Positions 1,446 through 18,043 of a DNA stretch of 64,000 nucleotides are shown piece after piece. The stretch's first letter is position 1, and each line of letters begins with the position of its first letter. The stretch is from a virus: positions 52,183-116,182 of the IMG/VR virus record IMGVR_UViG_3300043570_000570. The stretch is one strand, 5' to 3'. A program made the translations under genes and the position numbers. The notes under the pieces were generated by a model, which saw only the letters and a program-made list of their open reading frames with translations, searched no databases and was not told where the DNA came from.

Positions 1446-2975
1446 TTAGATACGAGGGAATTCTTTAATGATTACTGACTTAGTAGGATCTTCCAAGAAG
1501 ATACCGCAGAAGTCTTTCATCATGTAGGTGGAGTAAGGATCTTTGCTAGCAACAACAGTTTGTTGGCTTCCGAATCCTACTGAACCTGGGATATACTGAT
1601 AGTACATGTTAGGACGAGTAGACAATTTCACTTCACGAATTCCAGCGTCATCTTGACCACTGATATCCAAAATGATAAAGATTGGAGGAGTCTTCTTGTT
1701 AGGACCCAATTCCAAGAAAGTTGCATGCTCATTCAATTGCTCTAGTTCTACGAACTCAACTGGACCAGTTTCAGTAGTCATGAAGTGATCAAATTGGAAA
1801 GCATAACCTTGCTTCAAACGATCTTTACCATCCATGAACTTACCTGCATCTACCATGAAGTTCTGACCGTTGAAGTCTTTACGGATAGCAGTAGCTGCTA
1901 ATTCCATACCAGAACGGTTAGTGTAGATTTTAACGCTACGATCTTTGATCAACACACGGTTGTAGAACAAATCTCCAACAGCAGCACGAATCAAGTTCAA
2001 AGAGAACTGACCACGATCATAATAGATAACGTTACCCAAGTGAAGTTGTTGCCACAAACCTTGCTTAGCACGAGTTGGACGACCTTTTTCATCTTTAGCG
2101 TTACCTTGACGACCCCACATCAATGTGTTGGCCTTCATACGCATCATCTCCATACGAAGCAAACGAGATACTGTAGGCTCCCAACCAACAATCTTGGTCT
2201 TTTCGCCAACAGCCATAGCATCAGTTACAGAATAATAAGTAATGTCTAAAGGATTGCCTGTAGCATCTGTCTGCATACCCAATTTGGTTGCATCAGCCCA
2301 GTCAGTGATAGTGTGTTCAACACCATACTGTTGCAATACATCAGCCATAACTTCTAAGTTACCATCAAACAATCCCAAGCTAGAGAAAGAAGTGGTGAAT
2401 TCACCCAAGATGTTACCAATCTTGAAGTACTCAGTACCGATTTGTAAGAAACGTTGGTTAACGAAATCAGAACTAGAAGCACCAATTGCACGAGCACGGT
2501 ACTTAAAACCATTCTGATACTTTTCACCTTCAGCTACAACTTGGATCTGAGTTTCTTGCTCATAACGATGTGCAGTGATGATATCGTTTACAACGAATAC
2601 ATTTTTGTCAAACACAATCTCGAACTCTTGTCCATCAATACCAGGTTTAGCAATGCTAGAAGCCAAGTTAACAATAACTTTAGGCAATTCAGCACGCTTC
2701 TTGATTTTGTAAGTGAACACACCATTAGGATCGTTAACCATGTAGGGCTTACCGCTCTTCATAACTAGGTCGATCAAATCGTTAGAATACAATTTAGTGT
2801 CAGTGAATAGACGGATCATCATTTTGTCATACTGGTCAGGCTTAGTGCGCAACATAGTTTCTACAAAATTCTTGTCAGTCAATTTACCCAAACCATTCTT
2901 AGAATAGAATGAGCTGGTCATGTGGGCGTTAGCTATAACTCTCCCGTTAACCCTTGGAATACTTTGATTAGGCAT
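1446..2975 (-). CDS. Major capsid protein (crAss-like)
   Basis: 509 aa, strongly biased codons, LMWG...GLWQQL and C-terminal GIFLEDPTKS motifs, position after portal/scaffold. Confidence 0.88.
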   Translation of the reverse strand: MPNQSIPRVNGRVIANAHMTSSFYSKNGLGKLTDKNFVETMLRTKPDQYDKMMIRLFTDTKLYSNDLIDLVMKSGKPYMVNDPNGVFTYKIKKRAELPKVIVNLASSIAKPGIDGQEFEIVFDKNVFVVNDIITAHRYEQETQIQVVAEGEKYQNGFKYRARAIGASSSDFVNQRFLQIGTEYFKIGNILGEFTTSFSSLGLFDGNLEVMADVLQQYGVEHTITDWADATKLGMQTDATGNPLDITYYSVTDAMAVGEKTKIVGWEPTVSRLLRMEMMRMKANTLMWGRQGNAKDEKGRPTRAKQGLWQQLHLGNVIYYDRGQFSLNLIRAAVGDLFYNRVLIKDRSVKIYTNRSGMELAATAIRKDFNGQNFMVDAGKFMDGKDRLKQGYAFQFDHFMTTETGPVEFVELEQLNEHATFLELGPNKKTPPIFIILDISGQDDAGIREVKLSTRPNMYYQYIPGSVGFGSQQTVVASKDPYSTYMMKDFCGIFLEDPTKSVIIKEFPRI

Positions 2976-11385: not shown

Positions 11386-11832
11386 CTATTTTAAACTTTC
11401 AAACCCATTCTTAAACGACTTCTCTAAAGCCTTAGAATAAGCTTTTCTGTTATGAGGAATACCTTCTACAGAAATAAACATAGCATTAACGTAAACTACT
11501 TTACTAGCTTCTCCTTGAAGAAGAATTCCATTTACGTTAATTTCTGTACTTACAATATATTCTCTTTTAAGAAACTGTAAGCCTACAATATTTACAAGTT
11601 GTTCAGGCATTGCAATGGATTTGATTTTTCCTGAAATAGGACTGCCCTCATTACATAATTGGTACTTTGAAGAAGCAATCTCTTCTAGAGTAGTTTGTGC
11701 TCCAAAGATTATAGGTCTTCCTCCTATCTCTGTTACAGTTGCAATTGAAGTTACAGTGTCAATCTTGTAGCATTGAGCACTCAGAGAAGTCATCATAGTG
11801 ACTAAAGCGGAAAGTATAAATAGTTTTTTCAT
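11386..11832 (-). CDS. Exported protein, possibly a distant CsgG/LptE-like alpha/beta fold
   Basis: Signal peptide ending LSA|Q; C-terminal helix SKALEKS echoes GKATRKSLE of the CsgG-like gene. Confidence 0.5.
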   Translation of the reverse strand: MKKLFILSALVTMMTSLSAQCYKIDTVTSIATVTEIGGRPIIFGAQTTLEEIASSKYQLCNEGSPISGKIKSIAMPEQLVNIVGLQFLKREYIVSTEINVNGILLQGEASKVVYVNAMFISVEGIPHNRKAYSKALEKSFKNGFESLK

Positions 11833-11896: not shown

Positions 11897-12880
11897 TTAG
11901 TAAGTTACTGCTCCAGAGTATCCAGGAGCTATTATGTAGAGATTTAAAGTTCCTCCACTAGTTAAAGTAGAAGTTGTATGAGTGGAAACTCCAGGATACG
12001 TTCCTCTTACATTAGTAGCTGCGGCTTTGATAGCATTGTATTCAGTTAAAGTAAAGATACGTACATCAGGAGCTGTTCTCCATTTAGAAAATCTTCCTGC
12101 TTTTCTTGCAGCTACATAATACTTATCTGCTACAGAGATTATCTTGTCATCATTGACATCAAACATATGGAAAGATAAACCATTTCTACTAGTCTTATTT
12201 AAAACTACATTGGCTACTGCTTGAATATCTGTATTAGTGTAGGCTTGGATTCTAGTGGGAGCATTTACTTCTATATAATATTCTTTAGAAGGATCATAAG
12301 CTTCTGAAATCGAGTAGTAGCCAGCAGAGTTAGTATAGATTGTTTTGTAGAGAGCCCAAGAAGAAGTTGTAACTAAATACTCAAACTCTAGTACGTAAGC
12401 TAGATTGTTATTATTGTTTAGGTCATTCCATCTACCATTAGATACAAACTGTACATAGTCTTCATTACCTGAGTTGTTAGGTTCTCCACTGTTCCAGTTC
12501 TTATAAGAGTAAGTTTCTCCTGTTACCCATCTCCAAGTTCCTTCTGTTACTTCATCTGTTAAACCTATCCAGCCAGAAGGCCATAAAGCAAATAAAAAAC
12601 TTTGTTCTCCTGATGTTGTAATAGTTACTAAGTGACCACCCATATTAGAACAGTTAGTTCTAGCTGTAGTCCAAGTAGCACTACCTGTAGAACGGTAATA
12701 AGAGTGTCCTCCGTAGTTCTGTTGATTAGTGAATCCTGTAATGGTTTGGTTTGTTCTTCTGTAGAGCTTTATAGCCACATTAGAAGCACCAGAACCATTT
12801 GCATTATACAAGTATCCAGAGTAGGTAAATTGTGCACTCAGTGAGTTCACAAAGAAGAATAGAATAACAACCCATCTCAT
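11897..12880 (-). CDS. Exported C-type lectin protein with dockerin-like Ca-binding module
   Basis: Signal peptide LSA|Q; CTLD motifs GGHLVTI, WIGL, EPN, WND; DVNDDKIISVAD loop; no T9SS tail. Confidence 0.85.
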   Translation of the reverse strand: MRWVVILFFFVNSLSAQFTYSGYLYNANGSGASNVAIKLYRRTNQTITGFTNQQNYGGHSYYRSTGSATWTTARTNCSNMGGHLVTITTSGEQSFLFALWPSGWIGLTDEVTEGTWRWVTGETYSYKNWNSGEPNNSGNEDYVQFVSNGRWNDLNNNNNLAYVLEFEYLVTTSSWALYKTIYTNSAGYYSISEAYDPSKEYYIEVNAPTRIQAYTNTDIQAVANVVLNKTSRNGLSFHMFDVNDDKIISVADKYYVAARKAGRFSKWRTAPDVRIFTLTEYNAIKAAATNVRGTYPGVSTHTTSTLTSGGTLNLYIIAPGYSGAVTY

Positions 12881-14349
12881 ATTAATAACTTTGCTCCCAT
12901 TAAGATTTGAAAGTTAAGAATGTCTTGACCTGCAACATAAGTTCCTCCTCCTGTAATACCTAAGCCAAATGTCTTTGTCATTTTCCAGGTCAAATTTACA
13001 AAAGGAATTACAATCGGTTTAGCTTTAAATAAAGATTCTGTATAATACTTAGAATAAGGAGAATAAATACCAGCCATAATAACTGTAGCATCTATATGCT
13101 TAGTGAGTTTTCCTTTGTACATAAAACCTCCTATAACAATAGTAGAGATCATTTGTTCTCCATAGAGTTTACCGTAAGTTCCAGCAACTCCGTAAAGTGC
13201 TGTAAGATTCTTAATTGAATTTACTCTAACAAACAGAGCTGTGTTAGAGAAGGCTTTAGGCATCAGACTCATTCCATCTGATACTACACTAATGTGTTTA
13301 TGCCCTTTTTTGTTTGCTCCTATCCAAGAGCGTACGCATGAGATATTACCGATCTTAGCATTAAGCATGTAATCGGCTGAAAACCCAAGAGAAGAAGTAC
13401 CATCCCCTTTTACTCTTGTAAAGGAAGCAGTACCTCTTGCATCTTGTGCTCCATCAGACTTAGTCTGAATACCAACTAAATCACCAGTTACTAAGATCGC
13501 AGGCTTAGCAACTTCGGCTTTAGCTTTATTGGCTGCTTTCGCAGTACCACTAGACTGAGACTTTTGTTGCTCAGTCTTAGTTTCTTCTACTTTTTGTTCT
13601 GAGGGTTTCTCGGTTTGTACTTCCGTTTTTTCTTCGGTTTTACCACTACTTCCTGAGCCACTTCCGCTCCCACTGCTACCACTGGAGCTTCCACTACTGC
13701 TTCCGCTACTACTTCCACTACTGGAGCTGGAGCCACTGCTTCCTGAAGTACCATCTCCGCTGCTTCCTGAATTGGGATCTGGGGAATTTCCACTTGAGGT
13801 TCCTGAGGTTTCTGAGGAGTTAGATCCACCGTTTGTTTGTCCACTTTCTCCTGACGAGCTGCCAGAAGAATTAGAATTACTAGAGCTACTGCTAGTACGA
13901 TTCCGAGAGTTAGTTCGATTGTCATTGTTATTGGTTTTATTGTTGGTTCCTACGTTAGTCCCTGAAGAAGTACTTCCACCTACATCTACGTTAACACTTC
14001 CTACATTTGATATAGCCCCTAAGTTCATAACATTACTTACAATGTTTAAGGTCGCATTTGTAGTCGTGGTTGTTGTAGTGGTTACTCCAACTCCTTGACA
14101 GGGTGATGTATTTTTATACTTCAAATATACACTATTTATCCAACTATCAAATGTTCCGTCTGTTAATTCTGTATAAGAGAAAGTTTGGACCTGTCCATAG
14201 TAAGCAATTACTATAGGACTAGACATATTTGCGTTAATAAATTTTAATTCCTGCGTGCAAGGGTCTGTGTATGAATACATAAAGCTCTGACCTTTTAGGG
14301 ACAGAGCTAGTATGCAAAAGATTAATAATATTTTAGTTTTTAAATACAC
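12877..14349 (-). CDS. Exported protein with Ser/Gly linker and C-terminal beta-barrel-like domain
   Basis: Signal peptide LKG|Q, ~100 aa S/G/N low-complexity linker, ~200 aa of alternating amphipathic strands. Confidence 0.6.
   Translation of the reverse strand: MYLKTKILLIFCILALSLKGQSFMYSYTDPCTQELKFINANMSSPIVIAYYGQVQTFSYTELTDGTFDSWINSVYLKYKNTSPCQGVGVTTTTTTTTNATLNIVSNVMNLGAISNVGSVNVDVGGSTSSGTNVGTNNKTNNNDNRTNSRNRTSSSSSNSNSSGSSSGESGQTNGGSNSSETSGTSSGNSPDPNSGSSGDGTSGSSGSSSSSGSSSGSSSGSSSGSSGSGSGSGSSGKTEEKTEVQTEKPSEQKVEETKTEQQKSQSSGTAKAANKAKAEVAKPAILVTGDLVGIQTKSDGAQDARGTASFTRVKGDGTSSLGFSADYMLNAKIGNISCVRSWIGANKKGHKHISVVSDGMSLMPKAFSNTALFVRVNSIKNLTALYGVAGTYGKLYGEQMISTIVIGGFMYKGKLTKHIDATVIMAGIYSPYSKYYTESLFKAKPIVIPFVNLTWKMTKTFGLGITGGGTYVAGQDILNFQILMGAKLLI
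13587..13925 (-). CDS. Candidate overprinted membrane-anchored protein nested in 12877..14349
   Basis: Alternative frame, same strand: N-terminal TM helix, E/V/P/A-rich stalk, basic tail KPKKKRKYKPR; A-rich leader AATAAAACCAATAACA-ATG. Confidence 0.45.
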   Translation of the reverse strand: MTIELTLGIVLAVALVILILLAARQEKVDKQTVDLTPQKPQEPQVEIPQIPIQEAAEMVLQEAVAPAPVVEVVAEAVVEAPVVAVGAEVAQEVVVKPKKKRKYKPRNPQNKK

Positions 14350-15022
14350 CTGCCTTAATGAGATTTTGAATCACATTAGTACAAGCAGTTTCTAGAGACT
14401 TTCTGGTAGCTTTACCGACAGTACTTTGAGAAAATTTCATATCGTCAAGAGACTTTAAGAAAGATTCGCCTATCTTTTGTGATTCGCCTTCTCCAGATCC
14501 AATGTATATCTGACCTGTCTTTGCGTCAACAAAACGGACTTGTAAGCGAATAAAGGTAGTGACAGCAACTTTTGACTTAAGACCTTCAGCTTGCTCGTCT
14601 TCATCAACAGCAAAATCAGCCACAGTAACATACACAAAATAGTGAGCAGGTTTAATCTTACCTTTTCCATCAATGGGTTCATCAAATACACCTTTCTTTG
14701 AAGCTTTGAACTGAGTCACCATCCTCTCCTTGATTTCAGCCTTCTCCTCAGTAAATACAAAACGATTTGTTTCATCTAAATAGTCTAATACGGATTCTGC
14801 AAAACCTAAGCCTACGTTCTTTTCCTGTAAAGCAGGATACAAACTTAAGACTTTTGTCATGTCTACACTAACTACTTGAACTGTTTTTTTAATAGAATCT
14901 GTATAACCAGATACACTAGAGATGTCCTTAGATACTACAGGCTCATCATCTGTGGTTGTTTTCATACTACCACAACCAAACAATACAACAGTCAATAACA
15001 GACTACCAAGGCTCTTCATCAT
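14333..15022 (-). CDS. CsgG/HfaB-family outer-membrane lipoprotein
   Basis: Likely start MMKSLGS (15022); lipobox LFG|C; L.ETNRFVFTE, VRFVDAKTGQI and GEGE motifs of CsgG-like proteins. Confidence 0.8.
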   Translation of the reverse strand: MMKSLGSLLLTVVLFGCGSMKTTTDDEPVVSKDISSVSGYTDSIKKTVQVVSVDMTKVLSLYPALQEKNVGLGFAESVLDYLDETNRFVFTEEKAEIKERMVTQFKASKKGVFDEPIDGKGKIKPAHYFVYVTVADFAVDEDEQAEGLKSKVAVTTFIRLQVRFVDAKTGQIYIGSGEGESQKIGESFLKSLDDMKFSQSTVGKATRKSLETACTNVIQNLIKAGVFKN

Positions 15023-15314
15023 CTGGCTTTGGTTTAGTTGCTGGAGCAGGAGCAGCTGCAGGAGCAGCCTTCTCTTTAATAATGACAGTGTTACCACCAC
15101 CAGTATTTGCTTGTTGCTTTTGTTCGTTGTTCGTAGTGATGTTAATCACAGGTGCAGGGGCTGCTACAGCAGTTGGAGTTTCTGGCTTTTCATCTTCGCC
15201 ACCACCTAAGTGAGTAGCAAACCAAGCACCTCCTGCTGTAACAGCAGTGGTGATTGCTCCAATGATTGTTTTTTTGATAGCGGACATACCGCTTTCTTCT
15301 TTTTCTTCTGACAT
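15003..15314 (-). CDS. Small single-TM Pro/Ala-rich protein
   Basis: Likely start MSEEKEE (15314); stop overlaps the CsgG-like start. Confidence 0.65.
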   Translation of the reverse strand: MSEEKEESGMSAIKKTIIGAITTAVTAGGAWFATHLGGGEDEKPETPTAVAAPAPVINITTNNEQKQQANTGGGNTVIIKEKAAPAAAPAPATKPKPDDEEPW

Positions 15315-15318
15315 GATA

Positions 15319-15669
15319 TTATGAATTAGTTGTGTTTGATAGTGATTCTCCGTCTTCCTCATCGACCTTCTGTATTAACATCTTGTCTCTGTCTTCAGAG
15401 TTAAACCAATAGTCAACTACTTTGTTTAAGTTACCTACAAAGGCACCCAAGAGAATAAGTAGCAATTCTTTCCAGTCTTCTCCAATAGAAGCTCCCATAA
15501 ATACTGCTGCATTGATTCCAAGAATAATTAAAGTAAACAAACCTAACACAATAGCGGTAATTTTCCAACGATTGGCTTGCATTTGTTGTAGCATGTAGTA
15601 GAACCTGTTTTTAGGATCTACTGCTACTGGTTCTGCTTGGGTAAGACCAAGTGCTTTTTTTATGTTCAT
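15319..15669 (-). CDS. Two-TM inner-membrane protein
   Basis: Two hydrophobic helices; ATGA overlap with the upstream gene. Confidence 0.7.
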   Translation of the reverse strand: MNIKKALGLTQAEPVAVDPKNRFYYMLQQMQANRWKITAIVLGLFTLIILGINAAVFMGASIGEDWKELLLILLGAFVGNLNKVVDYWFNSEDRDKMLIQKVDEEDGESLSNTTNS

Positions 15670-17567
15670 TTTTGTACAATTATTTTAGAATGTAATACTT
15701 CTGTCTCAGTAGTTACAGAAAGAATATAAACGCCATCAGAGAGACGATCTAGGTTTGCACTATACTTGTACTTACCTGCGGGCATACGTTGTTTTAAAAG
15801 AGTCTCTATGCGTCTTCCTACCTCATCTGAGATAGCCATGTCTACGTTAGAGTCTTCTTTAATCTTGAATTGGACTTGGATGTTTCCTTCTGTAGGGTTA
15901 GGGAATACTATAATAGAGTTTAAGTCGTTAAGCGAAATAGTTCCTTTGTTGACTCTACGAACTTCAATGATTCCCATAGCAGGAGTAATGTTCATATCCT
16001 TAGAGTCTTTATCTCCTACGTATTTAGCACCTGTCCACAAAGCTGCACTTGCCCAAGAGTCTTGGGGTTTTTTAGCAATGAACTGAACTTTAAAAGCTTG
16101 TTCTCCATCGTTAAGCATGTTCTCGTTAGTTAAGTCAGCACCTCCCCAAGAAACCATTCCATTAGAAGGGTTCATGTAGGTAGTCCACTTCATCATCTTT
16201 TCAGAGTTCTCAATACCTTTAAACTCTAAGTAAGCTGTGTCGTACCTAAGATCTAACTGTAATGCACCTAAGTTCTTTCCGTTAGTCAAAACTTTAACAG
16301 GAACGTTAACTAGGTTTCCTTCTTCTACACTTACTTTAGGCATATTTACCTCAATAGTTTCTGCAGGGAAATCATAACTTACAGTTTCGTCAATAATGTA
16401 ACGCTTTGCGTTAGCTTGATTAGTAATTTTAATAGGAGTCAAACGAGCCATCTTAAATCCTGTAGCATTGGCGTCTCCCTTAACAGCTACGTAGTAAGTG
16501 ATAGAATCATTACCATCTACACTGTAAGTAAAGTTATTTATAGTAGAGTATGTGGAGGTCAAGTTAGATGTGGCGCCATTGATTGCATTGTATTCAGCAA
16601 CTGTAAAGAACATTACGTCTTTTTTAGAGTTAGGCCATGCAGTAAATCTACCTGCCAATCTTCCGTAAACAGCGTATACGTCAGCAATAGAAATATCTCC
16701 AGTAGTTCCGTTTACATCCATTGTGTAGTAATCAAAGCCTGTAGGAGTGTATTGACCTAAGATAGATTGATTAATCTTCTGTGCATCTGCAGTAGAGAAT
16801 ACATTACCTGGGATCATTGTGTCTCCTTTAACTACAATGCGTACATCCCAATAAGTAGTATCTAGGAATTTCTTAAACACAGTAACACCCAATGAGTTAG
16901 TCTTTTGTGAAGCAATCTGAGACCAAGTTGAAGAACCTTTAGCTCTCTTCTCTAAACTAACAGTTAAGTTCTTAGCATCTGTACCAGTTACGTTTTTAAA
17001 CTTAGTAGCAAAACGCAATACTTTCTGATTGAAACGTCCACCGTAAGAGTAAACTACCAAAGTAGTATCGTTACCCCAGTTAGTAGCAGCTCTGTTAGAG
17101 AATGACTTAACACCTGATACTTTTAAAGTCTTGATAGAATCTAAACTATTCCATACAGTTTCACCTGCGTGAGTAAAAGTCAAATCAAATGTAGCTCCGT
17201 TAGAATAGTTAAAAGTAGAACTAGATCCTGTGTAAGCCAAAGTAACTGTCAAGAATCCTTGTAGGTTACTATCTACATACTGAAGGTATTGATCAGAAGC
17301 AGAAATCTTAAGAGAAGGCACAACTCCTGTAAAAGCAGTCTTATCATAGAATACACGGAATTGCATACCTGTAATCTTCTCTGAAGTAGAAGTATTGTAG
17401 AAATGCAGAGGAGCAACTGTTTGACCTACAGTAGTTGTTGCTACTTGATAGCCTGAGTCAATTACTACCCAGTGACCTGTACCTGGAGAGGTAGCAGAAG
17501 ATTGTGCTGATGCATTGCCAACCAACAATGTGAGCACTCCGATGAGGACTTTGATTATTTTATTCAT
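15666..17567 (-). CDS. Cohesin-CnaB-like-dockerin-cohesin protein with T9SS type A C-terminal sorting domain
   Basis: Signal peptide ASA|Q; cohesin-like ITGMQFRVFYD and VNVPVKV...LGALQLDLRYD; dockerin-like STADA...DVNGTTGDISIAD; CTD VFPNP...GR...LSDGVYIL...KIIVQK. Confidence 0.85.
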   Translation of the reverse strand: MNKIIKVLIGVLTLLVGNASAQSSATSPGTGHWVVIDSGYQVATTTVGQTVAPLHFYNTSTSEKITGMQFRVFYDKTAFTGVVPSLKISASDQYLQYVDSNLQGFLTVTLAYTGSSSTFNYSNGATFDLTFTHAGETVWNSLDSIKTLKVSGVKSFSNRAATNWGNDTTLVVYSYGGRFNQKVLRFATKFKNVTGTDAKNLTVSLEKRAKGSSTWSQIASQKTNSLGVTVFKKFLDTTYWDVRIVVKGDTMIPGNVFSTADAQKINQSILGQYTPTGFDYYTMDVNGTTGDISIADVYAVYGRLAGRFTAWPNSKKDVMFFTVAEYNAINGATSNLTSTYSTINNFTYSVDGNDSITYYVAVKGDANATGFKMARLTPIKITNQANAKRYIIDETVSYDFPAETIEVNMPKVSVEEGNLVNVPVKVLTNGKNLGALQLDLRYDTAYLEFKGIENSEKMMKWTTYMNPSNGMVSWGGADLTNENMLNDGEQAFKVQFIAKKPQDSWASAALWTGAKYVGDKDSKDMNITPAMGIIEVRRVNKGTISLNDLNSIIVFPNPTEGNIQVQFKIKEDSNVDMAISDEVGRRIETLLKQRMPAGKYKYSANLDRLSDGVYILSVTTETEVLHSKIIVQK

Positions 17568-17578
17568 GTGTTTTAGTT

Positions 17579-18043
17579 TTACTTAATTTTACTTAGTTTG
17601 TGTATTTGTTCTACAGCGTTTGCCTGTAACCAAGGCTCTGGGGTTGGTAGTTTGTTTATAAAACTTAACTCGTATATGTAGCACTTAAGTTCTTCTTCTT
17701 CTAGACTCTGAGTTACTGGATGTAACAAATAGTTTAAGTGAAGACTCTCATGTACTAGAACGCAAGCTAAGTTGGCTATTGAGTTCATCTTTGCATCTCC
17801 TACGGCTATGTAAATAGTGTTTCCGTCTTGAGAGATGTTATTAGAAGAATAGGGACTAATCCAAAAGTCTACTATGTCGCAGACATCTATTAATCTAATG
17901 TATACATTGACATCTGTTTGAGCAATTAATGCTAAGGCTGAGTCTACCTTTAAATCCCAACCATCCCCTGCCTTCATCACTTTAATCTGAGAAAAGCAGG
18001 GAATAGAAAGAATTAGAAAAAGACTAATTAGTACAGATTTCAT
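17579..18043 (-). CDS. Exported HExxH zinc metallopeptidase-like protein
   Basis: Signal peptide CFS|Q; VLVHESLH with downstream EE. Confidence 0.7.
   Translation of the reverse strand: MKSVLISLFLILSIPCFSQIKVMKAGDGWDLKVDSALALIAQTDVNVYIRLIDVCDIVDFWISPYSSNNISQDGNTIYIAVGDAKMNSIANLACVLVHESLHLNYLLHPVTQSLEEEELKCYIYELSFINKLPTPEPWLQANAVEQIHKLSKIK

What the first reader, a model, noticed from the sequence alone, without database searches (positions are those of the whole stretch)
11897..17567. The lectin gene is a paralog of the scaffold's middle section with a C-type lectin inserted
Seen: 633 aa DVNGTTGDISIADVYAVYGRLAGRFTAWPNSKKDVMFFTVAEYNAINGATSN vs 327 aa DVNDDKIISVADKYYVAARKAGRFSKWRTAPDVRIFTLTEYNAIKAAATN. 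Upstream, both share N..G..A.N....L..R and W......TNS.G; in the short protein a ~125-aa CTLD sits between these two halves. Established: EPN plus WND indicates Ca-dependent mannose/glucose/GlcNAc-type binding. Inference: a swappable cargo subunit, so related phages may carry other domains in that loop.
Basis: partly seen in the sequence, partly recalled or inferred. Interest (0 to 1): 0.72.

Follow-up and report, generated by a model that had tools for sequence, protein, structure and literature searches.

The report
Swappable sugar-binder spliced into phage module
An uncultured crAss-like phage makes two exported proteins that share one docking-type module. In the smaller protein a sugar-binding C-type lectin domain is spliced into a loop of that module, and related phages carry other sugar-binding domains at the same spot, so this looks like a natural plug-in system whose function has not been tested.

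Summary

**Paralogy.** The 327-aa lectin and residues about 180-375 of the 633-aa cohesin/T9SS protein share a roughly 190-residue module: a beta-sandwich followed by a dockerin-like calcium loop. BLASTP gives E 6e-14. A profile of scaffold-type modules gives E 2e-29.

**Insertion.** The lectin's first 30 mature residues match the first two strands of the module (16.2 bits, against at most 9.3 in 2000 shuffles). The rest of the match resumes after residue 172. The C-type lectin domain therefore sits in the loop between strands 2 and 3.

**Other cargo at the same point.** Related phages carry PA14, a roughly 195-aa NIDO-like domain, or a lectin domain with a LamG domain nested inside it. Others have an uninterrupted module with the cargo fused in front.

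**Context.** The gene occupies a fixed slot in a conserved eight-gene cassette of exported proteins; 63 of 64 loci have the scaffold upstream.

**Exchange.** Cargo type switches at least 12 times on the tree of the neighbouring gene, but only about twice per type on the cargo's own flanks. Whole cargo genes are what phages exchange.

**Untested.** Docking of the module to the scaffold's cohesins, surface display and sugar specificity are all inferences.

The scan's first-stage readers had already noted this cassette on this same genome.

The parts
11897..12880 (-). Cargo subunit gene (327 aa): signal peptide, split module and inserted C-type lectin domain
   Evidence: ORF. Pfam Lectin_C. More than 1800 homologues in metagenomes, the best 120 at 84-100% identity.
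12833..12880 (-). Sec-type signal peptide of the cargo subunit (aa 1-16, MRWVVILFFFVNSLSA)
   Evidence: Read from the sequence: a basic start, a hydrophobic core and SLSA|Q. No predictor was run.
12752..12832 (-). N-terminal half of the module (aa 17-43): first two beta-strands of the sandwich
   Evidence: The scaffold-only HMM hits lectin 16-46 at profile positions 4-34. The isolated segment scores 16.2 bits against at most 9.3 in 2000 shuffles. The AF2 lectin model has strands at 17-23 and 36-43.
12365..12751 (-). Inserted C-type lectin domain with short Thr/Ser-rich linkers (aa 44-172). EPN is at 133-135 (nt 12476-12484) and WND at 151-153 (nt 12422-12430).
   Evidence: Pfam 64.7 bits. PDB sequence hits to CD23, Mincle, DC-SIGN and MBP-A at E 1e-14 to 1e-19. 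Foldseek hits to C-type lectin domains, TM to target 0.6-0.7. Motif positions.
11900..12364 (-). C-terminal part of the module (aa 173-327): remaining sandwich strands, dockerin-like helices with the calcium loop DVNDDKIISVAD (aa 241-252, nt 12125-12160), and terminal strands
   Evidence: HMM 88.5-103.7 bits. D241, N243, D245 and D252 are invariant in all cargo alleles aligned.
15666..17567 (-). Scaffold gene (633 aa): signal peptide, cohesin-like domain 1, uninterrupted module, cohesin 2, T9SS type-A C-terminal sorting domain
   Evidence: Pfam Cohesin 41.7 bits and Por_Secre_tail 44 bits. TIGR04183 40.2 bits. AF2 mean pLDDT 75.9. Foldseek hits to cohesins at E 1e-11, TM to target about 0.8.
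16443..17030 (-). Uninterrupted paralogous module in the scaffold (aa 180-375). The loop at 210-215 (nt 16923-16940) corresponds to the insertion point.
   Evidence: Weak profile hits to transthyretin-like proteins for aa 181-226 (E 0.002) and to a dockerin, 4uyp_B, for aa 249-294 (E 0.77).
12877..14349 (-). p490: signal peptide, small N-domain, Ser/Gly-rich linker and a C-terminal domain that may be an outer-membrane barrel. It lies immediately upstream of the cargo slot in all loci.
   Evidence: Synteny. ESM Atlas features are nearest KdgM/OmpL and Tsx barrels at 0.95, a lead only. No PDB or Pfam hit.
14333..15100 (-). p255: predicted lipoprotein (LFGC lipobox), conserved cassette member
   Evidence: The CsgG resemblance is only E 0.04 in 2 of 8 members, and there is no PDB hit.
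15003..15669 (-). p119 and p116: two small membrane proteins of the cassette
   Evidence: Conserved synteny. No family hit.
11386..11832 (-). p148: small secreted protein that follows the cargo slot
   Evidence: Conserved synteny.
17579..18043 (-). p154: small secreted protein with an HESLH motif, usually at the head of the cassette
   Evidence: Only a weak metallopeptidase hit, E 0.25.

Best explanation
Shown. The 327-aa protein is a paralogue of the central module of the 633-aa cohesin/T9SS protein. That module is a transthyretin-like beta-sandwich followed by a dockerin-like, one-calcium-loop helical part and closing strands. In the 327-aa protein a cysteine-poor C-type lectin domain with animal-like EPN/WND calcium-site residues is spliced, through short Thr/Ser linkers, into the loop between strands 2 and 3 of the sandwich. 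The gene sits in a fixed cargo slot of a conserved eight-gene cassette of exported and membrane proteins. In other phages the same slot holds the same module with PA14, a NIDO-like domain or a lectin-plus-LamG nest at the identical loop, or with the cargo fused in front. Whole cargo genes are exchanged frequently between otherwise near-identical phages.

Inferred. Late in infection both proteins are exported by Sec. The scaffold reaches the surface of the Bacteroidota host through its T9SS sorting domain. The shared module acts like a cellulosomal X-module-dockerin pair that plugs into the scaffold's cohesins, so that an interchangeable glycan-binding head is displayed. That head might serve receptor masking, adhesion or glycan capture.
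For: Paralogy:
- BLASTP E 6e-14.
- Scaffold-only HMM E 2e-29, plus a collinear N-terminal hit of 16.2 bits against at most 9.3 in 2000 shuffles.
- The break point is the same, profile position about 33/34, in seven insert-bearing proteins.

One domain:
- Uninterrupted modules align end to end.
- The AF2 scaffold module has pLDDT 83-91, with the insertion point in the loop at 210-215.

Cargo variety:
- PA14 at 40.8 and 27.5 bits, Laminin_G_3 nested in the lectin domain, and lectin variants.
- A third insert type in 32 loci, with NIDO as an Atlas lead at 0.92.
- Tandem CTLD + Ig_7 + module.

Cassette:
- The gene order is the same in more than 100 IMG/VR loci.
- 63 of 64 cargo loci with enough flank have the scaffold upstream.
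- The cassette is also in the cultured Flavobacterium phage immuto.

Exchange:
- 19 changes of cargo type, at least 12 forced by well-supported branches, on the tree of the p490 C-domain.
- 11-17 changes on every other cassette gene.
- 4 changes in all on the cargo's own flanks.

Docking-type parts:
- Cohesin above the Pfam cut-off, with Foldseek TM to target about 0.8.
- Dockerin_1 sub-threshold hits in 4 of 13 modules, best E 1.7e-4.
- The calcium ligands D, N, D, D are invariant.
- T9SS CTD above cut-off.
Against: - No test of module-cohesin binding was possible.
- Dockerin_1 never reaches its curated cut-off: best 18.9 bits against 22.9. The lectin itself gives no Dockerin hit at E 0.1 or better. 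Only one of the two canonical calcium loops is present.
- The AF2 model of the lectin is poor (mean pLDDT 53.5, C-terminal half below 50). That the halves pack together in this protein is therefore inferred from the paralogue and from uninterrupted homologues.
- The cargo has no T9SS sorting domain, so how it would cross the outer membrane is unknown.
- The scaffold's cohesins do not co-vary with cargo type. This neither supports nor excludes docking.
- Contigs assembled from mixed populations could inflate the count of switches.
Confidence: 0.72

Rival explanations
1. The paralogy and the insertion are real, but the shared module is not a cohesin binder. It anchors both proteins to a third partner: the p490 barrel or stalk protein, the lipoprotein, or a host envelope component. 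The cohesin-like domains would then serve another role.
For: - The module fails the Dockerin_1 cut-off and has a single calcium loop.
- p490, p255, p116, p119 and p148 are as strictly co-conserved with the cargo as the scaffold is.
- Cohesin trees do not track cargo type.
Against: - The module occurs only in proteins of cassettes that also encode cohesins: 63 of 64 loci.
- A sandwich followed by a dockerin-like calcium loop is the layout of cellulosomal X-module-dockerin pairs (established knowledge).
- No candidate partner domain was identified in p490 or p255.
Confidence: 0.2
2. The two proteins share only a common calcium-binding (dockerin/EF-hand) motif. The lectin is an ordinary two-domain protein with no split domain.
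For: A plain global MAFFT alignment of the four proteins does not place the N-terminal strand correctly. The second BLASTP segment alone is not significant, E 0.6.
Against: - The homology spans about 160 C-terminal positions, far beyond the 12-residue loop.
- The N-terminal 30 residues match the start of the module significantly and collinearly.
- Uninterrupted homologues join the two halves directly.
- Three unrelated inserts share the same break point.
Confidence: 0.03
3. The complex does not act on the living infected cell. It acts at or after lysis: the glycan-binding heads coat receptor glycans on debris and neighbouring cells, or are picked up by released virions, and so change adsorption.
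For: - The cassette lies in the late, structural orientation, between the fibre and lysis-type genes (p185, phrog_3000/endolysin-like) and terminase, portal and capsid.
- Frequent allele exchange is typical of host-interaction genes.
- The major head protein has a weak cohesin-like stretch of 13.6-15.9 bits, below the cut-off.
Against: - All evidence is circumstantial.
- The capsid cohesin signal is below threshold.
- An association between cargo type and fibre type could not be tested, because the fibre gene is not conserved in the flanks.
Confidence: 0.25

Closest known systems
Cellulosomal scaffoldins with cohesins, and X-module-dockerin (XDoc) dyads such as Clostridium thermocellum CipA and Ruminococcus flavefaciens CttA
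   Same: A multi-cohesin scaffold protein that also carries its own beta-sandwich plus calcium-loop module, and a second protein that carries the same kind of module joined to a functional domain. The cohesin fold is confirmed: Pfam above cut-off and Foldseek TM to target about 0.8. The calcium loop fits the pattern DxNxD....D.
   Different: - It is encoded by phages of Bacteroidota, not by Firmicutes cells.
- The scaffold ends in a T9SS sorting domain instead of SLH or sortase anchoring.
- The dockerin-like part has one calcium loop and stays below the Dockerin_1 cut-off.
- The cargo is a lectin-type domain rather than an enzyme, and it is nested inside the sandwich rather than fused in tandem.
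- Binding is untested.
Animal calcium-dependent carbohydrate-recognition domains of the EPN type (MBP-A, DC-SIGN, CD23, Mincle, langerin)
   Same: Strong sequence and fold similarity: E 1e-14 to 1e-19 and about 30-38% identity in Foldseek alignments. The EPN, a downstream glutamate (within NED, 139-141) and WND residues of calcium site 2 are present and conserved in most homologues.
   Different: It has one cysteine only, so none of the canonical disulfides. It is inserted into another domain. It is made by a phage with a bacterial signal peptide. Its sugar specificity is unmeasured.
Nested-domain architectures, such as the PA14 domain inserted into glycoside hydrolase family 3 beta-glucosidases and other enzymes (from my own knowledge)
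   Same: A compact binding domain whose two ends lie close together is spliced into a loop of a host domain. PA14 is itself one of the alternative inserts here. A related jumbo phage has PA14 nested inside Laminin_G_3.
   Different: Here one fixed loop of one small module accepts at least three unrelated domain families, and one double nest, within a single orthologous gene slot.
Phage C-type-lectin-fold variable proteins of diversity-generating retroelements (Bordetella phage BPP-1 Mtd)
   Same: A phage-encoded lectin-fold domain in a gene that varies between close relatives.
   Different: No template/variable repeat pair is present in the window. The domain is a canonical animal-type CTLD rather than the Mtd type. 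Variation comes from exchange of whole gene alleles, not targeted mutagenesis. The protein has a signal peptide and is not a fibre.
T9SS type-A C-terminal-domain cargo proteins of Bacteroidota
   Same: The scaffold carries a Por_Secre_tail/TIGR04183 domain above both curated cut-offs.
   Different: It is phage-encoded. The lectin subunit has no such domain, so it would need to ride along with the scaffold or use another route.

Membership tests
C-type lectin domain (Pfam PF00059) | Profile match above the curated cut-off, and the CTLD fold | tested here: met
   64.7 bits against 22.6. 171 PDB sequences at E 0.001 or better, the best at 1e-19 to 1e-23. Foldseek hits to CTLDs at probability 1.00, although the model is of low confidence.
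C-type lectin domain, calcium-dependent mannose-type subgroup | Calcium site 2 residues: EPN, a downstream Glu/Asn, and WND | tested here: met
   EPN 133-135, NED 139-141 and WND 151-153. They are conserved in P0172, P0151, immuto gp013 and close homologues, and lost in P0175.
C-type lectin domain, canonical | Two conserved disulfide bridges (four cysteines) | tested here: not met
   A single cysteine, C77, in the whole protein.
C-type lectin domain, calcium-dependent mannose-type subgroup | Measured calcium-dependent binding of mannose, GlcNAc or glucose | not testable with these tools
   Needs a glycan array or ITC.
Cohesin (Pfam PF00963) | Profile match above the cut-off, and the cohesin jelly-roll fold | tested here: met
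   Scaffold aa 405-527: 41.7 and 39.5 bits against 24.1. Foldseek hits to type I cohesins at E 1e-11, TM to target about 0.8. The N-terminal domain (aa 23-178) reaches only 19 bits, so it is cohesin-like and unconfirmed.
Dockerin type I (Pfam PF00404) | Profile match above the curated cut-off (22.9 bits) | tested here: not met
   Best 18.9 bits, in the L008 cargo. 4 of 13 modules match at E up to 10, best 1.7e-4. The window's lectin and scaffold give no hit at E 0.1 or better.
Dockerin type I (Pfam PF00404) | Two tandem calcium-binding loop-helix repeats | tested here: not met
   There is one complete loop, DVNDDKIISVAD. The preceding helix (TDIQAVANVVL) lacks the front of a loop.
Dockerin type I (Pfam PF00404) | Calcium-dependent binding to a cohesin | not testable with these tools
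   No multimer prediction or binding assay was available.
T9SS type-A sorting domain (PF18962 / TIGR04183) | C-terminal profile match above the cut-off | tested here: met
   Scaffold aa 554-632: 44-47 bits against 27, and 40.2 against 23. The lectin subunit has none.
Transthyretin-like / CarboxypepD_reg-like beta-sandwich | Profile or fold match of the sandwich part of the module | tested here: inconclusive
   The PDB profile hits transthyretin-like proteins at E 0.002-0.09 for aa 181-226. Pfam Transthyretin, CarboxypepD_reg, SdrD_B and TTR-52 match only at E 0.02-0.1. Structure aligners for single domains were not available.
PA14 (PF07691), alternative insert in related phages | Profile match above the cut-off inside the same loop | tested here: met
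   P0155 40.8 bits and P0170 27.5 bits against 24. The position lies between the module halves.
NIDO (PF06119), third insert type | Profile match | tested here: inconclusive
   No Pfam hit at E up to 10. There is only an ESM Atlas feature lead: 0.92, with NIDO on 12-14% of cluster members.
Diversity-generating retroelement target | A template repeat matching the variable region | tested here: not met
   No repeat of the lectin-domain DNA elsewhere in the window.

The most novel reading that the evidence does not exclude
Phages of Bacteroidota carry a portable, self-contained surface-display kit. It would consist of a T9SS-exported cohesin scaffold plus a plug-in subunit whose docking module accepts interchangeable glycan-binding heads in one loop. 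Phage populations would shuffle the heads, as whole alleles, to re-target what the infected cell or its debris sticks to or hides. This would be a viral analogue of the cellulosome, used for adhesion or receptor masking rather than catalysis.
Probability: 0.3. Interest if true: 0.85.

Novelty: new variant of a known kind. Interest (0 to 1): 0.68.

Why it matters
If the module docks on the cohesins, this would be a cohesin-dockerin-type assembly system encoded by viruses and wired to the Bacteroidota T9SS. I found none described in four full-text searches of the held library.

The cargo protein is also a clean natural example of one small domain loop that tolerates at least three unrelated inserted domains and one double nest. 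That is useful as a design template for displaying binders.

The frequent exchange of lectin, PA14 and NIDO-like alleles between near-identical phages points to strong, changing selection on which glycan is bound. That makes the question of what phage-exported lectins do during infection directly testable, because a cultured relative carries the same cassette: Flavobacterium phage immuto on Flavobacterium sp. LMO8.

Tried and rejected
- **Global MAFFT alignments.** Aligning the two window proteins with the immuto proteins, or with uninterrupted modules, put the N-terminal strand against the end of the lectin domain. I replaced them with profile searches.
- **AlphaFold of the lectin.** A 14-row alignment gave a poor model, pLDDT 53.5. 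It was used only for secondary structure and for the lectin-domain fold hit.
- **Structure aligners.** The pdb_via and pdb_via_wide libraries were not on the machine, so the module's fold could not be classified by structure.
- **The look-up of encoding contigs.** Contexts were taken from IMG/VR with the search for related loci instead.
- **Neighbouring proteins.** Profile searches of the lipoprotein p255 and the p490 C-domain against PDB found nothing. The CsgG resemblance stays at E 0.04 in 2 of 8 members, so I do not call it CsgG.
- **PHROGs.** No family for any of the eight cassette proteins.
- **Megablast.** The region has no match among deposited phages.
- **DGR hypothesis.** Rejected, because there is no template repeat.
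- **Tail-fibre link.** P0158 (Mtd_N plus module) suggested one. I rejected it as a probable chimera: its front matches a 1167-aa fibre without the module, and its back matches cassette cargo.
- **Fibre association.** A link between cargo type and fibre tip could not be tested, because the fibre is not conserved in the fetched flanks.
- **Cellular genomes.** A scan of 185,579 species genomes with a single degenerate peptide pattern found only one hit. It is a phage contig binned into a Sphingomonadaceae MAG. The first attempt, with the module alignment, had no usable pattern.
Full report
**What is there**

Window 11897-12880(-) encodes a 327-aa protein and window 15666-17567(-) a 633-aa protein. 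Pfam finds a C-type lectin domain in the first, at aa 68-163 (64.7 bits). In the second it finds a cohesin (best stretch 405-527, 41.7 bits; two stretches in all) and a T9SS type-A sorting domain (554-631, 44 bits). TIGR04183 agrees on the sorting domain.

The window belongs to a 116-kb IMG/VR virus record estimated 98% complete. Portal, large terminase and DNA polymerase genes are present. The major head protein is of the Crassvirus family (E 3e-27). This is therefore an uncultured crAss-like phage. The T9SS signal points to a Bacteroidota host.

**Check of the observation**

- BLASTP aligns lectin 172-304 with scaffold 212-349: 33% identity, E 6e-14.
- A search of the phage's own genome with the lectin finds exactly this one second copy.
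- The DNA keeps a 46-nt trace at 76% identity.

That search found only 62 clusters. I aligned the modules and built profiles from them.

A profile made only from scaffold-type modules hits the lectin in two collinear pieces:
- profile 4-34 matches lectin 16-46;
- profile 22-186 matches lectin 159-320, at 88.5 bits and E 2e-29.

The isolated N-terminal segment scores 16.2 bits, against a maximum of 9.3 in 2000 shuffles of the same residues. So the similarity is not confined to the calcium loop. About 129 residues (44-172) lie between the two halves.

**One domain, split**

In the scaffold, and in four other proteins (P0150, P0153, P0158, P0176), the two halves are joined by a 5-8 residue turn.

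The AlphaFold model of the scaffold has mean pLDDT 75.9, with 83-91 across most of the module. It shows strands at 183-192 and 202-209, a loop at 210-215, strands at 216-222, 228-234 and 240-246, then helices, then closing strands. The lectin's break point maps onto the loop at 210-215.

The lectin's own model is poor (pLDDT 53.5). It does place strands at 17-23, 36-43 and 176-205, with the best local confidence there.

Weak profile hits call the sandwich transthyretin-like (E 0.002). The helical part is dockerin-like: Dockerin_1 matches 4 of 13 modules, best E 1.7e-4, and never reaches the cut-off. The calcium ligands of the loop DVNDDKIISVAD are invariant across all cargo alleles aligned.

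**The inserted domain**

It resembles animal carbohydrate-recognition domains closely. CD23, Mincle, DC-SIGN and MBP-A match at E 1e-14 to 1e-19, and the fold hits agree. It keeps EPN (133-135), NED (139-141) and WND (151-153) but has a single cysteine. From established C-type lectin biochemistry, EPN predicts ligands of the mannose, GlcNAc or glucose type. That remains a prediction here.

**Other cargo at the same point**

They do:

| Protein or locus | What occupies the loop | Evidence |
|---|---|---|
| P0155, P0170 and loci L004-L007 | PA14 | Pfam 40.8 and 27.5 bits |
| L008 and 31 further IMG/VR loci | A roughly 195-aa domain with no Pfam hit; NIDO is an Atlas lead at 0.92 | |
| P0162 | A further insert of about 190 aa, no Pfam hit; not matched by the L008-type insert in phmmer | |
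| P0151 | The lectin domain with a Laminin_G_3 domain nested inside it | |
| L132-L135 | Module uninterrupted; a lectin domain and an Ig_7 domain are fused in front | |

The profile break point is the same in all insert-bearing proteins. The junctions are short Thr/Ser-rich linkers.

**Context**

In every locus with enough flank the gene order is p154, scaffold, (p116), p119, lipoprotein p255, p490, cargo, p148. Of 64 cargo loci with more than 6.5 kb upstream, 63 have a full scaffold.

The cultured Flavobacterium phage immuto, a 160-kb myovirus, has the same set, with the lectin gene moved to the front and the scaffold in two reading frames. All eight products have signal peptides, a lipobox or membrane segments by inspection.

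A single degenerate pattern found the cargo family in only one of 185,579 species genomes. That hit is a mis-binned phage contig.

**How the alleles move**

On a tree of the neighbouring p490 C-domain (82 loci), cargo type changes 19 times, and at least 12 changes are forced by branches with SH-aLRT of 95 or more. The window's nearest neighbours include a locus with the NIDO-like type.

Every other cassette gene, including each scaffold domain and the downstream p148, shows 11-17 changes between the lectin and NIDO-like types.

On a tree of the cargo's own module flanks, with the insert left out, there are only 4 changes in all. Flank identity between the window's allele and NIDO-like alleles is 72-78%, against a median of 80% within lectin alleles.

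So domain replacement in the loop happened a few times. Since then, whole cargo genes have been exchanged often between near-identical phage backbones. One caveat: these are metagenome assemblies, and some switches could be chimeric.

**Mechanism**

Shown:
- the paralogy and the split-domain architecture;
- the alternative inserts;
- the fixed slot in the cassette;
- the allele exchange;
- cohesin and T9SS-domain membership.

Inferred:
- Sec export of both proteins;
- T9SS delivery of the scaffold to the cell surface;
- the shared sandwich-plus-calcium-loop module acting like a cellulosomal X-module-dockerin pair that plugs into the scaffold's cohesins and displays a glycan-binding head.

Against the docking step, the module fails the Dockerin_1 cut-off and has one calcium loop. 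The cargo lacks a T9SS signal. No binding or multimer test could be run. A rival is that the module binds p490, the lipoprotein or the envelope instead.

What the displayed head is for is open. Receptor masking, adhesion, and action on debris after lysis are all possible. The late-gene position and the allele turnover fit a role in host interaction.

**Novelty**

Four full-text searches found no description of a phage-encoded cohesin/lectin cassette or of this nested architecture. I class it as a new variant of a known kind: cohesin-dockerin-type modular assembly, and nested domains. First-stage notes of this scan already flagged the cassette on this same genome. I checked the parts of their reading that bear on this finding.

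Noticed in passing
window 2457-2660 (inside major head protein gene 1446-2975, - strand): The Crassvirus-type major head protein (Pfam Crass_capsid, E 3e-27) gives a weak cohesin-like stretch at aa 106-173 of 13.6-15.9 bits, below the 24.1-bit cut-off. If real, capsids could be a docking partner for the module. It may equally be beta-sandwich noise.
   Followed up: partly
L010:7545-8819 (IMGVR_UViG_3300046779_001841, a 316-kb phage): A 425-aa protein with a PA14 domain (56.5 bits) nested inside a Laminin_G_3 domain (47 bits) and no docking module. Nested glycan-binding domains seem to be a habit of these phages.
   Followed up: partly
protein P0151 (558 aa, metagenome): Triple nesting: Laminin_G_3 lies inside the C-type lectin domain, which lies inside the sandwich loop of the module.
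   Followed up: partly
window 12877-14349 (-), p490: The C-terminal roughly 210 aa look like a small outer-membrane beta-barrel by ESM Atlas features only (KdgM/OmpL and Tsx, 0.95). There is no PDB or Pfam hit. The N-domain is separated from it by a Ser/Gly-rich linker of about 170 aa whose length varies between loci.
   Followed up: partly
window 17579-18043 (-), p154: A small secreted protein with an HESLH (HExxH-type) motif that usually heads the cassette. The only hit is a weak metallopeptidase match, E 0.25.
   Followed up: no
L131 (RFPL01000028.1, MAG labelled Sphingomonadaceae): A 16.5-kb contig carrying the whole cassette, nearly identical to the window phage, is binned in an alphaproteobacterial MAG. 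This is probably a mis-binned phage contig. Its lectin gene is split over three frames.
   Followed up: partly
L003:8394-10218 (Flavobacterium phage immuto gp014/gp015): The scaffold is annotated as two adjacent genes: cohesin 1 plus module, then cohesin 2. My phmmer piece for the T9SS domain did not hit it, and the lectin gene lies upstream instead of after p490.
   Followed up: no
L011:6227-9827 (IMGVR_UViG_3300043395_000996, a 180-kb phage): A divergent cassette in which a 638-aa protein has an N-terminal PA14 (20.6 bits, below the 24-bit cut-off) and a dockerin-like stretch (17.4 bits, below the 22.9-bit cut-off), next to p119-, p116-, lipoprotein- and p490-like genes. It may be a one-chain version of scaffold plus cargo.
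   Followed up: partly
protein P0158 (266 aa) and L136:9001-12501: An Mtd_N tail-fibre N-terminus joined to the module. The fibre part matches a 1167-aa fibre without the module, and the module part matches cassette cargo. It is therefore probably an assembly chimera and not a fibre tip.
   Followed up: yes
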